From a virus (lineage: Duplodnaviria > Caudoviricetes), in IMG/VR virus record IMGVR_UViG_3300022719_000071, positions 224,001-288,000 of that record: DNA of 64,000 nt. One strand, given 5' to 3'. A program made the translations under genes and the position numbers. Below are positions 11,198-18,953 of this stretch, piece by piece. Each line of letters begins with the position of its first letter. Positions within the stretch are counted from its first letter, which is position 1. The notes under the pieces are model-generated. The model was not told where the DNA came from and did not search any database. It saw only the letters and a program-made list of their open reading frames with translations.

Positions 11198-11515
11198 CTA
11201 AAGAGACTCATAAAATTCTACTATCTTTCTCATTTCATCTAAAGTAGCATTGTTTTTGAGACGATTGATTTTCCAACTAACAAACACTACATTATCTCTG
11301 GTATACCCCTTCGTGGAGTCAATCCTATCGATTGATAAACTGCTGTCAGATCGTTTCCCACGTTCTTGACGCAGGATAGTACCCGTGACAGGACACGTGA
11401 GAGGGACCGTCATACCCGAGATGTCTAAACGTGTGAGTTCGAACGGTATGCCAGCACGTTTCGCACGTGCCTTGGTGCGGGACCAAATGATTTCTACGTA
11501 GTCTTTGCTTAACAT
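11198..11515 (-). mobile_element. Small HNH-like homing endonuclease
   Basis: CPVTG...SIDRIDSTKGYTRDNVVFVSWKINRLK beta-beta-alpha-metal signature; antisense to neighbours. Confidence 0.75.
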
Positions 11516-11525
11516 GTAGGTATGT

Positions 11526-12230
11526 ATGAACAAGAGATTCCGGTACCGTGACCTTTCATATCCGACTTTGGAGAGCTATACTACGTCGAATGGGGAACGT
11601 GTTTACTATACTCCAATGGGTGCCGCTCCCTCTGTCACTACCATTATTAGTACCCTTCCCCACCCTGGTCTCGATGAGTGGCGGGAGAGAGTGGGAGAGG
11701 AGGAAGCAGATAGGGTATCGAAGGAAGCCGCAAGTATCGGCACGTGCATGCACGACATGCTGGAATCGTATGTTAGAGATGTTCAATACCCGGAAACGAA
11801 CACACCGGAAGAAGCCATAGCGAAGAAGATGTTCGCTGCGGTTCGTATGATGGGCCTCAGAGACCTTCAGGAGATTTGGGGCATCGAAGTGGCTCTGTAC
11901 TACGAAAACCTCTATGCTGGGCGTACAGACATCGTGGGGGTGTATTCTGGTAAGCCTTCCATCATTGATTACAAGACTTCCAAGTATTTCAAGAAGGACG
12001 AATGGATCGAGGACTACAAGCTTCAAACAGCCGCCTATGCAATTTGTCACGATGAGCTATTTCCGGACATTGAGCCAATAGAACAGTGTGTCCTCTTGCT
12101 TGGAACGAGACCAAATCCAGAGTATAGAGTGCCACCAAAGTGTCAACGGGTCATCATCGAGAAGGACGAGATGGAAGAGTACAAGGACAGGTGGCTTGGG
12201 GTATTGGAGGAATATCACGCTACACGGTAA
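11526..12230 (+). CDS. PD-(D/E)xK exonuclease (Cas4/RecB-like phage family)
   Basis: PSVTTI, GTCMH, YAGRTD, IIDYKTS and QTAAYA motifs. Confidence 0.85.
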   Translation: MNKRFRYRDLSYPTLESYTTSNGERVYYTPMGAAPSVTTIISTLPHPGLDEWRERVGEEEADRVSKEAASIGTCMHDMLESYVRDVQYPETNTPEEAIAKKMFAAVRMMGLRDLQEIWGIEVALYYENLYAGRTDIVGVYSGKPSIIDYKTSKYFKKDEWIEDYKLQTAAYAICHDELFPDIEPIEQCVLLLGTRPNPEYRVPPKCQRVIIEKDEMEEYKDRWLGVLEEYHATR

Positions 12231-13791: not shown

Positions 13792-14808
13792 GTGCCCTAT
13801 CTTACGAACATGAAGTTTTGTATCATAGACGCTAGCAATCTTGTTCATAGAGCCAAACACGTTATATCAAAGTATGATTCCTTTGATGAGTGTGTAGGCT
13901 TGACGCTGACTATTGTCTTCAACTCGATGAAGAAATCCTACGAGAAGTTTGGTGCAGAGCATTGCGTAGCTTGTTTCGACTCTTCCTCCTGGCGTAAAGA
14001 AATCTACCCCGAGTACAAGGGAGACCGTGTAGCAAAAGAGAAGTCTCCTATCAAAAAGGAGGAAGATGAAATCATCTGGCAGGTGCTTAGTGATCTACGA
14101 AAGTTCCTGGATGAATTCACCAATGTCACCGTTCTACATGAGCGAGACATTGAGGCAGACGATTTCATTGCTCGATGGACTCAATTGCATGACGACGAAT
14201 CATTCGAGCACATTATCATTTCCGGTGATGGAGACTTCAAGCAACTAGTGCGACCCGGTGTAGAGTTGTATGATCCCATTCGTAACTTTCTGTATACTGC
14301 TGATGGTATATTCTATCAAGATGGAAAAAAGCCACGCAAAGAACAGCCAGTAGCACAGAAACACGGTGAAACTTGGAAAGTCAAGCTTACCAAAGATGGT
14401 GACCCGGAGACATTCGAACCAGAGTGGGAACTGTTTCAGCTTTGCATTCGTGGTAAGAAAAACAACTTACGAACCGCATATCCTCGTGTACGCACGAACA
14501 AGATGCGAGAAGCTTACGATGATCGTGGTGGCCCGAAGTGGAATGATTTCATTAATACTATTTGGGGTCCGGAAGATAATCGTCAACGAGTTCGTGATAG
14601 ATATGAAGAAAACCGGTTGTTGATCGATTTGCGACGACAGCCTGACGAAATCAAGTTCGTGATGGATGAAACCATCAATGCCTCTTTGGAGAAAGATGCC
14701 AAGACTATGGTGGGCGCATACTTCGCTCGTTTCTGTGGCAAATACAAGCTTCGGAAACTGGTCGATCAAGCGTCTGCCATTACCCAATTGCTATCTGCGC
14801 CCTATTGA
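13792..14808 (+). CDS. rnh: T4 RNase H-like 5'-3' exonuclease (FEN family)
   Basis: IIDASNL, ACFDSSSWRKEIYPEYK, EADD and IISGDGDFKQL motifs. Confidence 0.88.
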   Translation: MPYLTNMKFCIIDASNLVHRAKHVISKYDSFDECVGLTLTIVFNSMKKSYEKFGAEHCVACFDSSSWRKEIYPEYKGDRVAKEKSPIKKEEDEIIWQVLSDLRKFLDEFTNVTVLHERDIEADDFIARWTQLHDDESFEHIIISGDGDFKQLVRPGVELYDPIRNFLYTADGIFYQDGKKPRKEQPVAQKHGETWKVKLTKDGDPETFEPEWELFQLCIRGKKNNLRTAYPRVRTNKMREAYDDRGGPKWNDFINTIWGPEDNRQRVRDRYEENRLLIDLRRQPDEIKFVMDETINASLEKDAKTMVGAYFARFCGKYKLRKLVDQASAITQLLSAPY

Positions 14809-14858
14809 TTCCCACGTCTCGATGTATATAATAGCGGTTCGTCAGGAGAGAACCGTTC

Positions 14859-15019
14859 ATGGCAAAGGTACAAGAAACATACAAGAAGCTGGATGATTAC
14901 CAGCATGCACGCCTTCGTACAGAAATGTACCTTGGATCTCGTGAACCTCACACAGTCCTTACCTCACTTTGACGGTGAGGTATTAGGTATGCGTGAGTTT
15001 ACCTGGGTATCGGCGGCTA
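14859..15019 (+). pseudogene. Orphaned, frameshifted original 5' end of the topoisomerase II large subunit
   Basis: MAKVQETYKKLDDYQHARLRTEMYLGSREPHT, then after a 2-nt shift PHFDGEVLGMREFTWVSA; collinear with the N-terminus at 16691; retains AGGAG RBS. Confidence 0.85.
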
Positions 15020-16690
15020 TCACACAGCTACTTGCATCTCCGTATTGAAATTTAGAACCCACACGGAATTTCCGCAATCCCATATTCTATGGTATCCCCG
15101 TTGTTGCATGATTTCTCTTTCGGTTAAAGAAGAATCATAACCATCTTTGCACAGTTTATGTTTTTGATATTTGATACGAGATTCTCTATTCAGTGGGTAC
15201 GTTGATACGTACCAATAAGCAGGTTTGCTGTGATGACTTAATGTAAATCCCAAACTTTGATAAAGATCTCCATCAGACCATCTTCTATCTGCATAAGATA
15301 CAATAGAAGATCCTGGAAATTTTTTTGTAACTTGCGATAGTAGTTTCCCTGCGCTTCCGACAACGGATGTATTAATCTTATTACAAAATCGAATCATTTC
15401 CAGATCATACTTCTTTGAAAATCTTGGTTTACAAAATGTCATAACGGAAACCAATTCATCATTCTTCCATAGTCCATAATTGATTGACGACGGATGTTCT
15501 CCCTGTAGATGATTGTCGTTCATGAATTTAGCAGCTAGTGGGTATGATATGGATTCAACACGGCAGTTTCTAGCGAATACCTTATCTGTAGTTTGTTTTA
15601 GTAAATGACTAATTTTTGACTTTACTATAGAACTCTTGTATCTCCATTCGTCTTCAAATATTGTTAACAACCTGACGTTTTGTTTTTTACATTGAAGTAA
15701 CTTATCAATATGATAATTGCTATCACAGAATCCTTCGGAATGCCAATACAACCCACACACTTCCAAAGCTAAATTATGCTTAGGAACGAAAATATCTAAT
15801 TCCTTGGGAGCAATTATTCCTCGATTACTTCGCTGGATACTAACACCCAACTGTGTGATGAAATCACCTATTTCTAATTCTGGTTTGGAAATTAATGTTC
15901 GGCACCTGGGACAACCGACTCCACGAAGATTAGCATTTGGTATCTGCCAAAATGCACCGTGCACGGGACATACAATCACGCCCTTTTGCTTACTTCCAGT
16001 ATACACAAAACGGGAATAATCATACGTCGGGTGGATTTCACCCGCTTCCTCCACGAAGTCTTCAGTGCTTTTTAGTCTACCCTTTCTATCTACACATTTA
16101 GCGCATCCACTTCCGTTTTTGTGGTCATTGGCTATTTGCCAAAATACACCATGCTCGGGGCATACTATTTGTATTTTTTCGGATACACCCCTGTAGTTCA
16201 CTAACGAATAATCATATTTTCCATCATGAATATCCGCACATCTGGACAAGAATTCCTTTTCATGCAACAACAAAGATTTAGATGATTTTTGCAAACCACA
16301 TTTATTGCATCCTTTCCCGCTCAGATGAACATATGCACGTTGTTTGAATAACCCATGCGTTGGACACTTGATAATGACCATATCTCTCGATTTGGTATAA
16401 TCAACCAAGGAATAATCGTAAAACAGTCCATGTTTAGAACGTGCTCGCCTAATGAATTCGTCAGTGCTGAGCATTAGTGATTTTGTGGTGTTTTCTCTCC
16501 CACAGTCAGGACACCCCTGATTTCTATACAAATGATTCTTCGGAGTCTGCTTGAAACTTCCGTGCTTTTGGCATATAATAGATATCGGAATATTTTTCCC
16601 CATGTAATCAGAATTGGAATAATCATACTTCATGCCGTGCGTCTTTACCGCACGAACAATAAATTCTTCAGTAGTGAGATTTTTAGGCAT
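15020..16690 (-). mobile_element. Hef-like homing endonuclease with four Zn-ribbon repeats
   Basis: Four C..HG.F.Q...H..G.GC..C repeats; ELDIFVP..NLALEVCGLYWH nuclease motif; C-terminal FARNC..NHLQG..RFC..RIWDCG region typical of T4 Hef-like proteins; AT-rich. Confidence 0.85.
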
Positions 16691-18586
16691 ATGGCAGACA
16701 CACTCAAAAAACTAAATGATTACGAACACACAAGACTTAGAACAGAATTATACTTTGGTTCTAGAGAACTTCATACTCAAAATATACTCCATTTTGATGG
16801 AAAGCAACTTTCATTGCGTGAGTTCACATGGGTTCCTGCATTATTTACAGGGATTAGAGAAATAATCGATAATGCTCTCGATGAAATGGTTGGGCATCGC
16901 AAGGGTGACACACTGCGTGTTACCTATGACGAGTCCACCATGGAGATTTCCGTTGAAGACAATGGCCGTGGTCTACCAATCGATGAGCGCAAGGATTTAG
17001 GCAAAGGTCCAGCCGCATCCATTCTCCTGGGAGAAGCCCGAGCAGGACGTAACTTCGATGAGCGTGGTCAAGTAGCCGGTACCAATGGTCTTGGTGCTGC
17101 CTGCACCAACTTTACCGCTGAATGGTTTGAGCTTGATGTGTATCACGGCTCAAAGCGTTTAAAGCAACGTTGGGAGGAAGGCACGTACGGTGGTAAGGAC
17201 AAGCACCGAACCAAAGGACCAAATGTCATTCGGGGCTCTAAGGCTAAGAGCGGAACTAAGATTACCTACAAGCCTTCTGCAAAGGTATTCAAGCATTTGT
17301 TGCTCCCAACCGATTTTATCAAAGGTCGTCTGTGGGACATCGCAGTGTCCAATCCCAAGATCAAGGTCTACTTCAATGATGAGCGTCTGACTCCATTACC
17401 CGGACGTGATGCAGTTGCCGCCACGTATTTTAAAGATCAAGCCATCAGCAAGATTTCCTTTGAGGACGGCAACTTCAACAGCCACTTCTATCTGCTGCCA
17501 GACTTCAATGGCGACGAAGAAGTTGTACATTCGGTGGTAAACAACCTACCTGCACTACAAGGCGGCTCGCACATCGATGCGTTCCGCAACCTGTTCTATC
17601 CGTCTGCAATGAGTCATTTAACCAGCACACGTGGCAATGCCTTCACCAAGGAAAAACTGACGTTAACCCGTCCTGATATTGCTACTGGCTTGCTCATCTT
17701 CAACGTCACTACTATGGATGGGCCTAACTTTGACTCACAGACAAAAAGTCGTTTGATTACCGAAGTCCGTGGAACCATGAAGGCATGCTTCGATGAGTTC
17801 CAGGTCGGATCTGCGTTTCGTAGGAACTCTGCATGGGTGGAGTTGATCCTGGAGCGTTGCCGTCGAAGGACTGTGAGCAAAGAGACCCGTGAGATCAGCC
17901 GTGAGCAGAGGAAGATGCAACGAAGCAAGGTTGCCAAGCTCCGTGATGCAACGGGGAACCGTCGCTCGAAATGTACGCTATTCATCGGTGAGGGCGATTC
18001 TGCTCTGAACAACATGTTCACTGTGCGTGATCCAAATTTACATGGTGCACTGCCGTTGCGTGGCAAGATTTTGAATGTGCATGGCATTTCACCGAAGAAG
18101 GTCATTGAGAGTCAAGCACTTGCTGACATTATGACAAGCATAGGTTTGCAAATCGGCACAAAAGCAAACCGACCCAACCTTCGATACGGGAAAGTGTACA
18201 TTGCTACTGACGAAGATGAGGATGGTAAGAACATCACCGCATTGCTGGTGAACTTCTTCTTCCGCTTCTGGCCGGAACTATTTGAGGGAGAACCATTTGT
18301 CTACAAATTCTCTACCCCGTTCATCATTGTGGAGAAGGGCAAGCAGCGAAAGTACATCTATGCAGACGCATACGATGAGTTCCAGACTAACCTGGAGAAG
18401 TATAAGGGGTGGGCTATCACCAGGGCTAAGGGTCTAGGCACTCTTACTCTGGAGGATTGGGCACATGCACTGGAGAAACCACAGGTCATACCGGTGATCA
18501 ACGATGGTCACCTGAAAGAGACGTTGGATCTGATCTTCAACCAGGATAGAGCCGATGATCGCAAGGAGTGGTTGAGTCATGACTAA
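16691..18586 (+). CDS. DNA topoisomerase II large (ATPase plus TOPRIM; gp39+60-like) subunit
   Basis: EIIDNALDE, EDNGRG, GTNGLG, EGDSA, PLRGKILN, TDEDEDG, KGLG; ATG 16691 chosen by homology to the 14859 remnant. Confidence 0.93.
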   Translation: MADTLKKLNDYEHTRLRTELYFGSRELHTQNILHFDGKQLSLREFTWVPALFTGIREIIDNALDEMVGHRKGDTLRVTYDESTMEISVEDNGRGLPIDERKDLGKGPAASILLGEARAGRNFDERGQVAGTNGLGAACTNFTAEWFELDVYHGSKRLKQRWEEGTYGGKDKHRTKGPNVIRGSKAKSGTKITYKPSAKVFKHLLLPTDFIKGRLWDIAVSNPKIKVYFNDERLTPLPGRDAVAATYFKDQAISKISFEDGNFNSHFYLLPDFNGDEEVVHSVVNNLPALQGGSHIDAFRNLFYPSAMSHLTSTRGNAFTKEKLTLTRPDIATGLLIFNVTTMDGPNFDSQTKSRLITEVRGTMKACFDEFQVGSAFRRNSAWVELILERCRRRTVSKETREISREQRKMQRSKVAKLRDATGNRRSKCTLFIGEGDSALNNMFTVRDPNLHGALPLRGKILNVHGISPKKVIESQALADIMTSIGLQIGTKANRPNLRYGKVYIATDEDEDGKNITALLVNFFFRFWPELFEGEPFVYKFSTPFIIVEKGKQRKYIYADAYDEFQTNLEKYKGWAITRAKGLGTLTLEDWAHALEKPQVIPVINDGHLKETLDLIFNQDRADDRKEWLSHD

Positions 18587-18953
18587 TAAGAAGCAAGTAC
18601 CAGCAGCGGTACATTTCCAAACGACGGGCCAGCTACAGCCAATCGATTACAACTGGCTGCACATTCTGCACGTATGTCGTGAGGCATTGCAACAGGAGAA
18701 GCAATATGTTATTCTGCCTGTCGAAGAGAAGCAGAATGACAAGCGCAACAAGATGCGGCTGGTGAAGGGAGATAAGAACAGCCCTCGTGGGTTGGTGATG
18801 AAGACCGACCGTGAGGCATTGCAACGATACTATCCGTATGCTGCCGTTCGTTTGGATGCCGAGGAATTGTCTACCTACGCTGCCAAGAGATTCAATGAGC
18901 TTGATCCAGCAGAACTGGAAAGGATGGCAAGTGAGCTTACCCAGCAGAGCTAG
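18579..18953 (+). CDS. Hypothetical protein between the topoisomerase subunits
   Basis: ORF overlapping both neighbouring genes. Confidence 0.55.
   Translation: MTNKKQVPAAVHFQTTGQLQPIDYNWLHILHVCREALQQEKQYVILPVEEKQNDKRNKMRLVKGDKNSPRGLVMKTDREALQRYYPYAAVRLDAEELSTYAAKRFNELDPAELERMASELTQQS

What the first reader, a model, noticed from the sequence alone, without database searches (positions are those of the whole stretch)
14859..16880. Homing endonuclease invasion that replaced the 5' end of the topoisomerase gene
Seen: two collinear copies of the topo II large-subunit N-terminus flank the antisense Hef-like gene. Upstream copy: YKKLDDYQHARLRTEMYLGSREPHT|PHFDGEVLGMREFTWVSA, broken by a 2-nt loss in a CA run (about 14949-14954) and ending at the HEG stop. 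Downstream copy: LKKLNDYEHTRLRTELYFGSRELHTQNILHFDGKQLSLREFTWVPA, intact. The new copy is AT-rich like the HEG up to about 16870, then composition reverts. Known: HEGs carrying a duplicated host-gene end occur in fungal mitochondria, and T4 mobE splits nrdA. Inference: the element inserts inside an essential gene without splicing and rescues it by supplying a foreign, cleavage-resistant N-terminus, making a chimeric topoisomerase.
Basis: partly seen in the sequence, partly recalled or inferred. Interest (0 to 1): 0.8.

Follow-up and report, generated by a model that had tools for sequence, protein, structure and literature searches.

The report
Homing scar: relic and chimeric topoisomerase
A selfish nuclease gene entered this giant phage next to its essential topoisomerase gene through a sloppy DNA repair, which gave the gene a foreign front end and left the original front end as a short dead copy beside it; this is a clear natural scar of a known process, not a new kind of element.

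Summary
A 157-nt relic of the resident topoisomerase (gp39-like) 5' end lies at 14859-15015. An antisense Hef-like homing endonuclease gene (HEG) follows at 15020-16690. The intact topoisomerase starts at 16691.

The closest HEG-less relative shows which copy is which:
- The relic is the ancestral allele: 86% nt identity, and sister to the relative in the tree.
- Codons 1 to about 58 of the working gene are foreign: about 63% nt identity and GC3 0.22, against 0.55 for the rest of the gene.

Eleven relatives have rnh directly next to the topoisomerase gene with no HEG. Contigs from three further samples bridge both junctions, so this is not an assembly artefact. In those samples the 2-nt CA loss is absent, so the relic is an in-frame 63-codon ORF there.

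New here: the relic is fused to a diverged 33-nt copy of the rnh 3' end. The donor therefore carried the HEG between rnh and the topoisomerase gene.

Best reading: the break was repaired by homology on one side and by an illegitimate join on the other. This was shown experimentally for T4 introns, and it mirrors the fungal mitochondrial hybrid genes. The donor, the cleavage site and HEG activity are untested. This scan has noted a similar case on other DNA.

The parts
13792..14808 (+). Resident rnh (5'-3' exonuclease / RNase H) gene, intact, ending ...AITQLLSAPY*
   Evidence: Pfam 5_3_exonuc_N, E 1.4e-22. It is 82% aa identical to the rnh of relative L029. It lies directly upstream of the topoisomerase gene in 11 relatives.
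14809..14858 (+). Resident rnh-topoisomerase intergenic region, with a promoter-like site (14805-14832, ending in TATAAT) and a strong Shine-Dalgarno (AGGAGAG) in front of the relic's ATG
   Evidence: Aligns with the 53-nt intergenic region of L029. Promoter-like match of 10/12. This is a consensus match only.
14859..15015 (+). Relic of the resident topoisomerase 5' end (codons 1-53 of the 634-aa form). It is frameshifted in this window by loss of one CA unit at 14949-14954.
   Evidence: 86% nt identity to the L029 5' end, and homology stops after 15014. Sister to P0002 in the N-terminal tree at 96/88. Only one deviation from conserved positions, P52S. The CA is present in runs X2-X4.
15016..15048 (+). 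Foreign rnh 3' tail (AITQLLASPY*), fused in frame to the relic. It marks the donor's left flank.
   Evidence: The motif occurs only twice in the six-frame translation of the 360-kb genome: here and at the true rnh end. It is 21/33 nt identical to the resident tail, with mostly synonymous differences. The LLASPY* form is the natural rnh end in relatives L033 and L035.
15020..16690 (-). Free-standing Hef-like homing endonuclease gene (556 aa). It has four CxxH...CxxC zinc modules (DUF723 type), a Vsr-like nuclease core at about residues 267-350, and a C-terminal domain.
   Evidence: Pfam DUF723 E 8.8e-16 and Vsr E 5.6e-4, the latter below the cut-off. PHROG 559 and 3339, E 9e-140 and 8e-106. tblastn hits to proteins annotated Hef-like or homing endonuclease. 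GC 0.38 against 0.467 for the genome. Its C-terminus is about 7 residues longer than the family median, because the ORF runs on into the rnh tail.
16551..16579 (+). Sigma-70-like promoter match (TTGAAA-17-TATAAT) inside the HEG, antisense to it, about 110 nt upstream of the topoisomerase start
   Evidence: An 11/12 match. The number of such sites in the region is not above chance, so this is only a lead.
16691..16865 (+). Foreign 5' segment of the working topoisomerase gene (codons 1 to about 58). Its ATG abuts the HEG's ATG (CATATG).
   Evidence: GC3 0.22 against 0.545. 63% nt identity to L029, in the lowest 0.65% of 175-nt windows along the gene. 4 of 33 conserved positions deviate, against 4 of 247 in the rest. 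Best N-terminal match among 5.8 billion proteins is only 77-78%.
16862..16895 (+). Zone of the right-hand crossover, in the conserved IDNALDEM (ATPase N-box) codons, where composition returns to the resident type
   Evidence: GC3 and Arg codon use (AGA, then CGC/CGT) change here. The exact point cannot be fixed without the donor sequence.
16691..18586 (+). Chimeric type IIA topoisomerase large subunit (gp39-like, 631 aa), intact
   Evidence: Pfam HATPase_c, DNA_gyraseB, Toprim and TOPRIM_C. 83% aa identity to P0002. The rest of the gene is sister to P0002 at 100.

Best explanation
This is the scar of one aberrant homing event.

The donor was a related phage that has not been sampled. It carried the Hef-like HEG, antisense, filling the short space between rnh and the topoisomerase gene. 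The HEG's 3' end ran into the rnh tail, and its ATG abutted the topoisomerase ATG.

During a mixed infection, the resident topoisomerase gene was broken somewhere between codon 52 and about codon 60. The steps below are inferred.
1. The right-hand end was repaired by homology with the donor's topoisomerase gene, crossing over in the conserved IDNALDEM codons at about 16862-16895.
2. Copying ran leftward through the donor's topoisomerase 5' end and the whole HEG, and only 33 nt into the donor's rnh.
3. That end was then joined illegitimately to the broken resident end at 15015/15016, sharing at most 2-3 nt.

Shown results:
- A working chimeric topoisomerase with foreign codons 1 to about 58.
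- A 157-nt relic of the resident 5' end that still has its own promoter-like site and ribosome binding site.
- A second, diverged rnh tail fused to that relic.
- The relic is decaying: a (CA)4-to-(CA)3 frameshift in one sample, and P52S.

Inferred: the HEG made the break, the foreign allele is immune to it, and repair followed a synthesis-dependent, one-sided route.
For: 1. Polarity of the two copies.
- The relic is 86% nt and 88% aa identical to HEG-less relative L029/P0002, and is its sister in the tree (96/88).
- The working N-terminus is about 63% nt and 73% aa identical.
- The rest of the gene is 74% nt and 84% aa identical, and is sister to P0002 at 100.

2. Foreign composition. GC3 is 0.22 for codons 1-58, 0.545 for the rest, 0.44 for the relic and 0.34 for the HEG. 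The value is in the lowest 1.7% of windows genome-wide, and the nt identity is in the lowest 0.65% of windows along the gene. Four of 33 conserved positions deviate, against 4 of 247 (p 0.008).

3. Donor architecture. The 33 nt after the relic encode a diverged rnh C-terminus plus its stop. That motif is found only there and at the true rnh end in the whole genome. The same LLASPY* ending is the natural rnh end of two relatives. The HEG ORF runs about 7 residues past the family's usual end into this tail.

4. Ancestral state. Eleven relatives (47-83% aa identity) have rnh 5-200 nt upstream of the topoisomerase gene with no HEG.

5. A single event. Eight other Hef-like HEG loci in the same genome show no flank duplication.

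6. Real DNA. Both junctions are bridged in contigs from three further samples.

7. Known mechanism. One-sided homing with illegitimate, microhomology-level junctions was shown experimentally for T4 introns (Parker et al. 1999, as summarised in PMC2988022).
Against: - No donor was found. The closest HEG homologue is 46% identical, and the closest N-terminus 77-78%.
- None of the 11 relatives carries an HEG at this site, so the donor arrangement rests on the 33-nt tail alone.
- The protein tree of the 51 N-terminal columns is weak. Forcing the working N-terminus next to P0002 is not rejected (AU p 0.08).
- The junction microhomology and the right-hand crossover point cannot be fixed without the donor sequence.
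- HEG activity, its cleavage site and the immunity of the foreign allele are untested.
- All supporting samples come from one study.
Confidence: 0.7

Rival explanations
1. A dedicated 'HEG plus spare N-terminus' cassette, the phage counterpart of fungal mitochondrial mobile ORFs. It would routinely insert inside the topoisomerase coding sequence and rescue the gene with its own front end.
For: - The structure mirrors the mORF hybrids: a foreign gene end plus an endonuclease, with the native end left as a relic that is closer to relatives (PMC3630166).
- The HEG's upstream signals must lie inside the foreign N-terminal codons, because the two ATGs abut. HEG and N-terminus are therefore functionally tied.
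- The composite, now flanked by resident sequence on both sides, could home as a unit.
- This scan noted a similar phage case on other DNA (e1-3436652, not checked here).
Against: - The cassette's left end is a piece of a neighbouring gene, the rnh tail. That has no role in such an element and points to an intergenic home site.
- No second instance was found among 11 related loci or 8 paralogous HEG loci.
- The HEG is antisense and is not fused to or read with the host gene, unlike mORFs.
Confidence: 0.15
2. Illegitimate recombination between two co-infecting diverged phages that was not started by this HEG. The HEG would be a passenger on the transferred segment.
For: - Both junctions may rest on short homology only. 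The conserved IDNALDEM codons are on the right, and 2-3 nt on the left.
- No cleavage data exist.
Against: - The transferred segment is almost exactly the HEG plus its immediate flanks: 33 nt on one side and about 175-200 nt on the other. That is the pattern expected of break-initiated co-conversion around an HEG.
- The genome is full of such HEGs.
- HEGs at recombination boundaries are a documented pattern in phages (PMC10448857).
Confidence: 0.1
3. Recent intragenomic tandem duplication followed by HEG insertion, or an assembly chimera of two strains.
For: Two collinear copies lie 1.8 kb apart. The source is a metagenome.
Against: - The copies are only 72% identical and have very different GC3.
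- The intergenic region is not duplicated.
- The copies have different nearest relatives.
- Contigs from three further samples span the junctions.
Confidence: 0.03

Closest known systems
Intronless homing by free-standing homing endonucleases of T4-type phages (SegF, SegG, MobE, Hef of phage U5), reviewed in PMC2988022
   Same: A nuclease gene sits between conserved essential genes and is absent from that site in relatives. It is flanked by a co-converted foreign tract in the neighbouring gene. No intron or intein is present.
   Different: Normal homing leaves no duplication. Here one side was joined illegitimately, leaving a relic of the target gene's 5' end and a second rnh tail. The nuclease is of the DUF723/Vsr-like 'Hef-like' type, and its cleavage has never been tested.
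[quoted passage not shown] I know it only through the summary in PMC2988022, because the paper itself was not held.
   Same: Homology is used on one side only. The other junction forms at a non-homologous or microhomologous site, which lets the element enter an 'ectopic' position.
   Different: That was an engineered plasmid-phage system with the td intron. This is a natural product involving a free-standing HEG, and an essential gene is kept functional by the co-transferred 5' end.
Fungal mitochondrial mobile ORFs (mORFs) that create hybrid genes: Allomyces macrogynus atp6, and Glomus atp6, atp9, cox2 and nad3 (PMC3630166)
   Same: An endonuclease ORF arrives with a foreign copy of a gene end that replaces the native one. 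The native end stays beside it as a relic that is much closer to the relatives' sequence: 91-98% against 64-81% there, and 86% against 63% here.
   Different: The mirror-image end is involved (5' rather than 3'). The endonuclease is antisense and not fused in frame to the host gene. The setting is a phage, not an organelle. A fragment of the neighbouring gene came along and reveals the donor's layout.
Gene-splitting HEG insertions: mobE in Aeromonas phage Aeh1 nrdA, and mobA with the gene 60 bypass in the T4 topoisomerase gene (my own knowledge; the Aeh1 case is cited in PMC2988022)
   Same: An HEG disturbs an essential replication gene, which still works afterwards. The T4 case concerns the same topoisomerase large subunit.
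   Different: Those cases leave the gene in two functional pieces with no duplicated end. Here the gene stays in one piece and is chimeric.

Membership tests
Free-standing phage homing endonuclease gene (intronless homing) | ORF encodes a protein of a recognised HEG-type nuclease family | tested here: met
   PHROG 559 and 3339 (homing/HNH endonuclease), E 9e-140 and 8e-106. tblastn gives 33-40% identity over about 97% of the length to proteins annotated Hef-like or homing endonuclease.
Free-standing phage homing endonuclease gene (intronless homing) | Sporadic presence between conserved genes, with the same site empty in relatives | tested here: met
   Eleven related loci have rnh directly upstream of the topoisomerase gene with no HEG.
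Free-standing phage homing endonuclease gene (intronless homing) | Co-converted foreign tract in the flanking gene | tested here: met
   Codons 1 to about 58 have GC3 0.22 against 0.545, and 63% nt identity to L029 against 74%.
Free-standing phage homing endonuclease gene (intronless homing) | Not housed in an intron or intein | tested here: met
   No Rfam match at E up to 1 in 14500-17200. The ORF is antisense to both neighbours.
Free-standing phage homing endonuclease gene (intronless homing) | Site-specific cleavage of the HEG-less allele, and immunity of the HEG-carrying allele | not testable with these tools
   This needs purified protein and cleavage assays.
Hef-like (DUF723 repeat plus Vsr-like nuclease) endonucleases | Repeated DUF723 / treble-clef zinc modules at the N-terminus | tested here: met
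   Pfam DUF723 E 8.8e-16 and DUF4379 E 0.006. Four CxxH...CxxC modules are visible in the sequence.
Hef-like (DUF723 repeat plus Vsr-like nuclease) endonucleases | Vsr-like (PD-(D/E)XK) catalytic core | tested here: inconclusive
   Pfam Vsr scores 20.2 bits against a cut-off of 27. The PDB match to I-Bth0305I (3r3p) has E 0.58 only. No structure was predicted.
Hef-like (DUF723 repeat plus Vsr-like nuclease) endonucleases | Homology to the original Hef of phage U5 | not tested
   The 'Hef-like' label comes only from annotations of database relatives. The U5 sequence was not compared.
Fungal-type mORF hybrid gene | A foreign gene end replaces the native one, and the native end is kept as a relic closer to the relatives | tested here: met
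Fungal-type mORF hybrid gene | Endonuclease ORF in phase with, or co-oriented and co-transcribed with, the host gene's 3' end | tested here: not met
   The HEG is antisense and lies at the 5' end.
One-sided homing with illegitimate repair | One junction lies at a site with no homology between recipient and donor | tested here: met
   Topoisomerase codon 53 is joined to rnh codon -10. Homology to L029 ends at 15014.
One-sided homing with illegitimate repair | Microhomology at the junction and a homologous crossover on the other side | tested here: inconclusive
   At most GC(G/T) can be shared. The right-hand switch falls within conserved codons, but the donor sequence is unknown.
Type IIA topoisomerase large subunit (T4 gp39-like) | GHKL ATPase, transducer and Toprim domains in one intact ORF | tested here: met
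   Pfam HATPase_c, DNA_gyraseB, Toprim and TOPRIM_C. All columns invariant across the 30-sequence alignment A2, which includes the window's protein, are kept in the chimera.

The most novel reading that the evidence does not exclude
The composite now acts as a self-contained mobile unit, made of four parts:
- the relic;
- the rnh tail;
- the antisense HEG;
- the foreign N-terminus.

On this reading it would home into the coding sequence of HEG-less topoisomerase genes. It would be hard to lose, because the essential gene's start signals, and perhaps its promoter (the 16551-16579 match), now lie inside the HEG. That would make it a phage counterpart of the fungal mORFs with an addiction-like twist. 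A further untested possibility is that the in-frame 63-codon relic, which keeps its own promoter-like site and strong ribosome binding site, is expressed as a small protein carrying the topoisomerase N-terminal arm.
Probability: 0.15. Interest if true: 0.7.

Novelty: new variant of a known kind. Interest (0 to 1): 0.45.

Why it matters
Free-standing homing endonucleases are thought to shape phage mosaicism, but natural products of failed or sloppy homing are rarely identified.

This locus keeps all the pieces needed to read one event:
- the resident allele, as a relic;
- the incoming allele;
- a fragment of the donor's neighbouring gene, which gives the donor's gene order;
- a population polymorphism that shows the relic starting to decay.

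It shows that an essential phage gene can be rebuilt as an inter-lineage chimera, from sources about 30% diverged at the DNA level, in a single step. It also gives a narrow, testable prediction for the target site of an uncharacterised and very abundant HEG family: thousands of homologues scored E below 1e-60. It further links phage biology to the mitochondrial 'hybrid gene' phenomenon.

Tried and rejected
- **Searches for the donor failed.** Megablast against 50,697 phage records found nothing. The best HEG homologue among 5.8 billion proteins is 46% identical. The best match to the foreign N-terminus alone is 77-78%.
- **The locus of the weak tree neighbour has no HEG.** P0021 (L047/L048) has no HEG between rnh and the topoisomerase gene. 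It does have a DUF723 gene two genes further upstream.
- **The metagenome scan was thin.** It gave only 16 related loci, none with the HEG.
- **The AU test was not decisive.** On the 51-column N-terminal alignment it did not reject placing the working N-terminus with P0002 (p 0.08). The case therefore rests on DNA identity, composition and the relic, not on that tree.
- **No nucleotide-level conservation at the REFTWV codons.** I looked for it across relatives as a possible target-site mark. Synonymous sites vary freely, so the idea was dropped.
- **No general tendency of this HEG family to duplicate flanks.** None of the eight other loci does so. The only hits came from two HEGs lying in tandem.
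- **No intron.** The Rfam scan found none.
- **Parker et al. 1999 could not be read.** It is not held and is cited only through the review.
- **The self-comparison of the HEG added nothing** beyond showing its sequence.
- **Run X4 was not used for any statement about habitat or absence.** It holds only a small share of the stretch.
Full report
**Setting.** The window is positions 224001-288000 of a 360-kb IMG/VR virus record, estimated 91% complete. The phage is a jumbo phage. Its topoisomerase is about 50% identical to those of Agrobacterium phage Atu_ph07 and Sinorhizobium phage Phosso. The local gene order is a phosphoribosyltransferase-like gene, rnh (13792-14808), the feature under study, the topoisomerase large subunit (16691-18586), a small ORF, and a gp52-like subunit.

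**Observation.**
- The upstream copy starts at 14859 behind a strong Shine-Dalgarno. It reads 32 codons, loses frame, and continues in the next frame to ...REFTWVSA.
- The downstream copy starts the intact 631-aa gene at 16691.
- The two copies are 72% identical over 81 nt without gaps.
- Between them, on the other strand, lies a 556-aa ORF (15020-16690). It has DUF723 zinc-module repeats and a weak Vsr-type match. It has strong PHROG hits to homing endonuclease families. It also has full-length similarity to phage proteins annotated 'Hef-like homing endonuclease'.
- The genome holds about ten paralogues of this ORF.
- No intron model matches the region.

**Which copy is ancestral.** The protein database holds closer relatives than the phage collections do. 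The closest, P0002 (83% identity, 634 aa), lies on a Logan contig (L029). That contig has the same gene order, only 53 nt between rnh and the topoisomerase gene, and no HEG.

| Comparison with L029 / P0002 | nt identity | aa identity |
|---|---|---|
| Upstream relic | 86% | 88% |
| Working N-terminus | about 63% | 73% |
| Rest of the gene | 74% | 84% |

The alignment of the relic to L029 also shows the 2-nt gap in the CACA run.

- The first 175 nt of the working gene are in the lowest 0.65% of identity windows along the gene.
- GC3 is 0.22 for codons 1-58, 0.545 for the rest, 0.44 for the relic and 0.34 for the HEG. Only 1.7% of 58-codon windows in the genome's long ORFs are as AT-rich at third positions.
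- Against the 29 nearest relatives, the working N-terminus departs from 4 of 33 conserved positions. The rest of the protein departs from 4 of 247 (p 0.008). The relic departs only at P52S.
- In trees, the relic is sister to P0002 (96/88), and so is the rest of the gene (100). The working N-terminus groups weakly (90/53) with P0021, which belongs to a different clade in the rest-of-gene tree.
- The AU test on this short alignment does not by itself reject an ancestral origin (p 0.08). The conclusion therefore rests on the combined DNA evidence.
- The trees used the cluster representative P0001, which differs from the window by R76S. That variant is also seen in runs X2 and X4.

**The new clue.** Homology between the relic and L029 ends after 15014. 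The next 33 nt (15016-15048) encode AITQLLASPY followed by a stop. The resident rnh gene ends AITQLLSAPY followed by a stop.
- This motif occurs nowhere else in the six-frame translation of the genome. Even the short form LLxxPY-stop occurs only at these two places, against 0.65 expected by chance.
- The two tails are 21/33 nt identical and differ mostly at synonymous sites. The second tail is therefore a diverged homologue, not a recent local copy.
- LLASPY-stop is the natural rnh end in relatives L033 and L035.
- The HEG's last nine codons and its stop overlap this tail on the opposite strand. The HEG is about 7 residues longer after its terminal DCG motif than the family median, as expected if the ORF simply runs on into the tail.
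- At the other end, the HEG's ATG abuts the topoisomerase ATG as CATATG.
- The transferred block therefore looks like a slice of a related genome in which the HEG filled the whole rnh-topoisomerase spacer.

**Ancestral state and uniqueness.** Eleven related loci, with topoisomerase identity from 47% to 83%, all have rnh 5-200 nt upstream of the topoisomerase gene and no HEG. Eight other Hef-like HEG loci in this genome show no duplicated flanks.

**Reality of the structure.** Four runs of one study hold the stretch.
- Contigs from X2, X3 and X4 bridge the relic/tail/HEG junction, the HEG body, and the HEG/topoisomerase junction. X1 may be the source sample.
- In X2, X3 and X4 an extra CA is present after 14948. 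In those samples the relic is an uninterrupted 63-codon ORF: 53 topoisomerase codons plus 10 rnh codons.
- The frameshift is therefore a polymorphic slip in a CA repeat. That fits a dispensable sequence beginning to decay.

**Mechanism (inferred).**
- The layout is resident rnh, resident spacer, resident topoisomerase codons 1-53, donor rnh tail, HEG, donor topoisomerase codons 1 to about 58, then the resident remainder.
- This is what one-sided repair of a break at about codons 52-60 would give.
- The right end finds homology in the conserved IDNALDEM codons. Copying proceeds leftward through the HEG.
- The new strand is then joined to the left break end without homology.
- Such illegitimate one-sided homing, with microhomology junctions, was demonstrated for T4 introns (Parker et al. 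1999, as summarised in PMC2988022).
- The 27 nt between the TWVPA codons and ATCGATAA are the most diverged part between the foreign allele and L029. They are my best guess for the target site. This is untested.

**Comparison with known systems.**
- The outcome mirrors the fungal mitochondrial mORF hybrids (PMC3630166). There a foreign C-terminus plus an endonuclease replaces the native end, which persists as a relic closer to the relatives.
- It differs in three ways: the 5' end is involved, the nuclease is antisense, and a piece of the neighbouring gene came along.
- It also belongs with the intronless homing of T4-type free-standing HEGs. Unlike the gene-splitting cases (Aeh1 mobE, T4 mobA), it leaves the gene whole.
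I did not check that case.

**Verdict.** The finding is a well-documented natural variant of known HEG biology, with a specific prediction for the target of an uncharacterised HEG family.

Noticed in passing
window 16688-16693: The HEG start and the topoisomerase start abut as CATATG with no spacer. Each gene's ribosome binding site must therefore lie in the other's coding sequence. The topoisomerase gene has only a weak AGG 3 nt upstream, whereas the relic keeps a strong AGGAGAG.
   Followed up: partly
window 16551-16579 (+): An 11/12 sigma-70-like promoter match (TTGAAA-17-TATAAT) lies inside the HEG on the antisense strand and points at the topoisomerase gene. It might drive the essential gene and oppose HEG expression. 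The number of such matches in the region is not above chance.
   Followed up: no
window 14897 and 16916: Population variants in other samples of the same study. T>C at 14897 is in the relic (run X2). C>A at 16916 gives R76S in the topoisomerase (runs X2 and X4), and is also found in the database cluster representative P0001.
   Followed up: partly
window 11198-11533 (-) and 11526-12230 (+): A small antisense HNH-type ORF of 111 aa has its start overlapping, by 8 nt, the start of a diverging 234-aa gene. This is a second back-to-back nuclease and core-gene pair.
   Followed up: no
G000:C1 67469-201627 (loci L002-L010): About nine further Hef-like paralogues (36-45% identical) are scattered over the genome. 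They include a tandem pair at 169233-172598 and one copy with an internal TAA at 161039-162487.
   Followed up: partly
window 15020-16690 (-), residues 370-519: The C-terminal domain of the HEG has a weak PHROG match to Mom-like DNA modification proteins (phrog_1384, E 3e-8). The role of this domain in the family is unknown.
   Followed up: no
window 18579-18953 (+): A conserved ORF of about 124 aa with no family assignment lies between the two topoisomerase subunit genes. It is also present in relatives L029, L030 and L047, and may be a third subunit or an accessory protein.
   Followed up: no
L047 1714-2691 (-) and L048 661-1638 (-): In the lineage whose N-terminus is weakly closest to the foreign one, an antisense DUF723 gene of 325 aa lies three genes upstream of rnh rather than next to the topoisomerase gene.
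   Followed up: no
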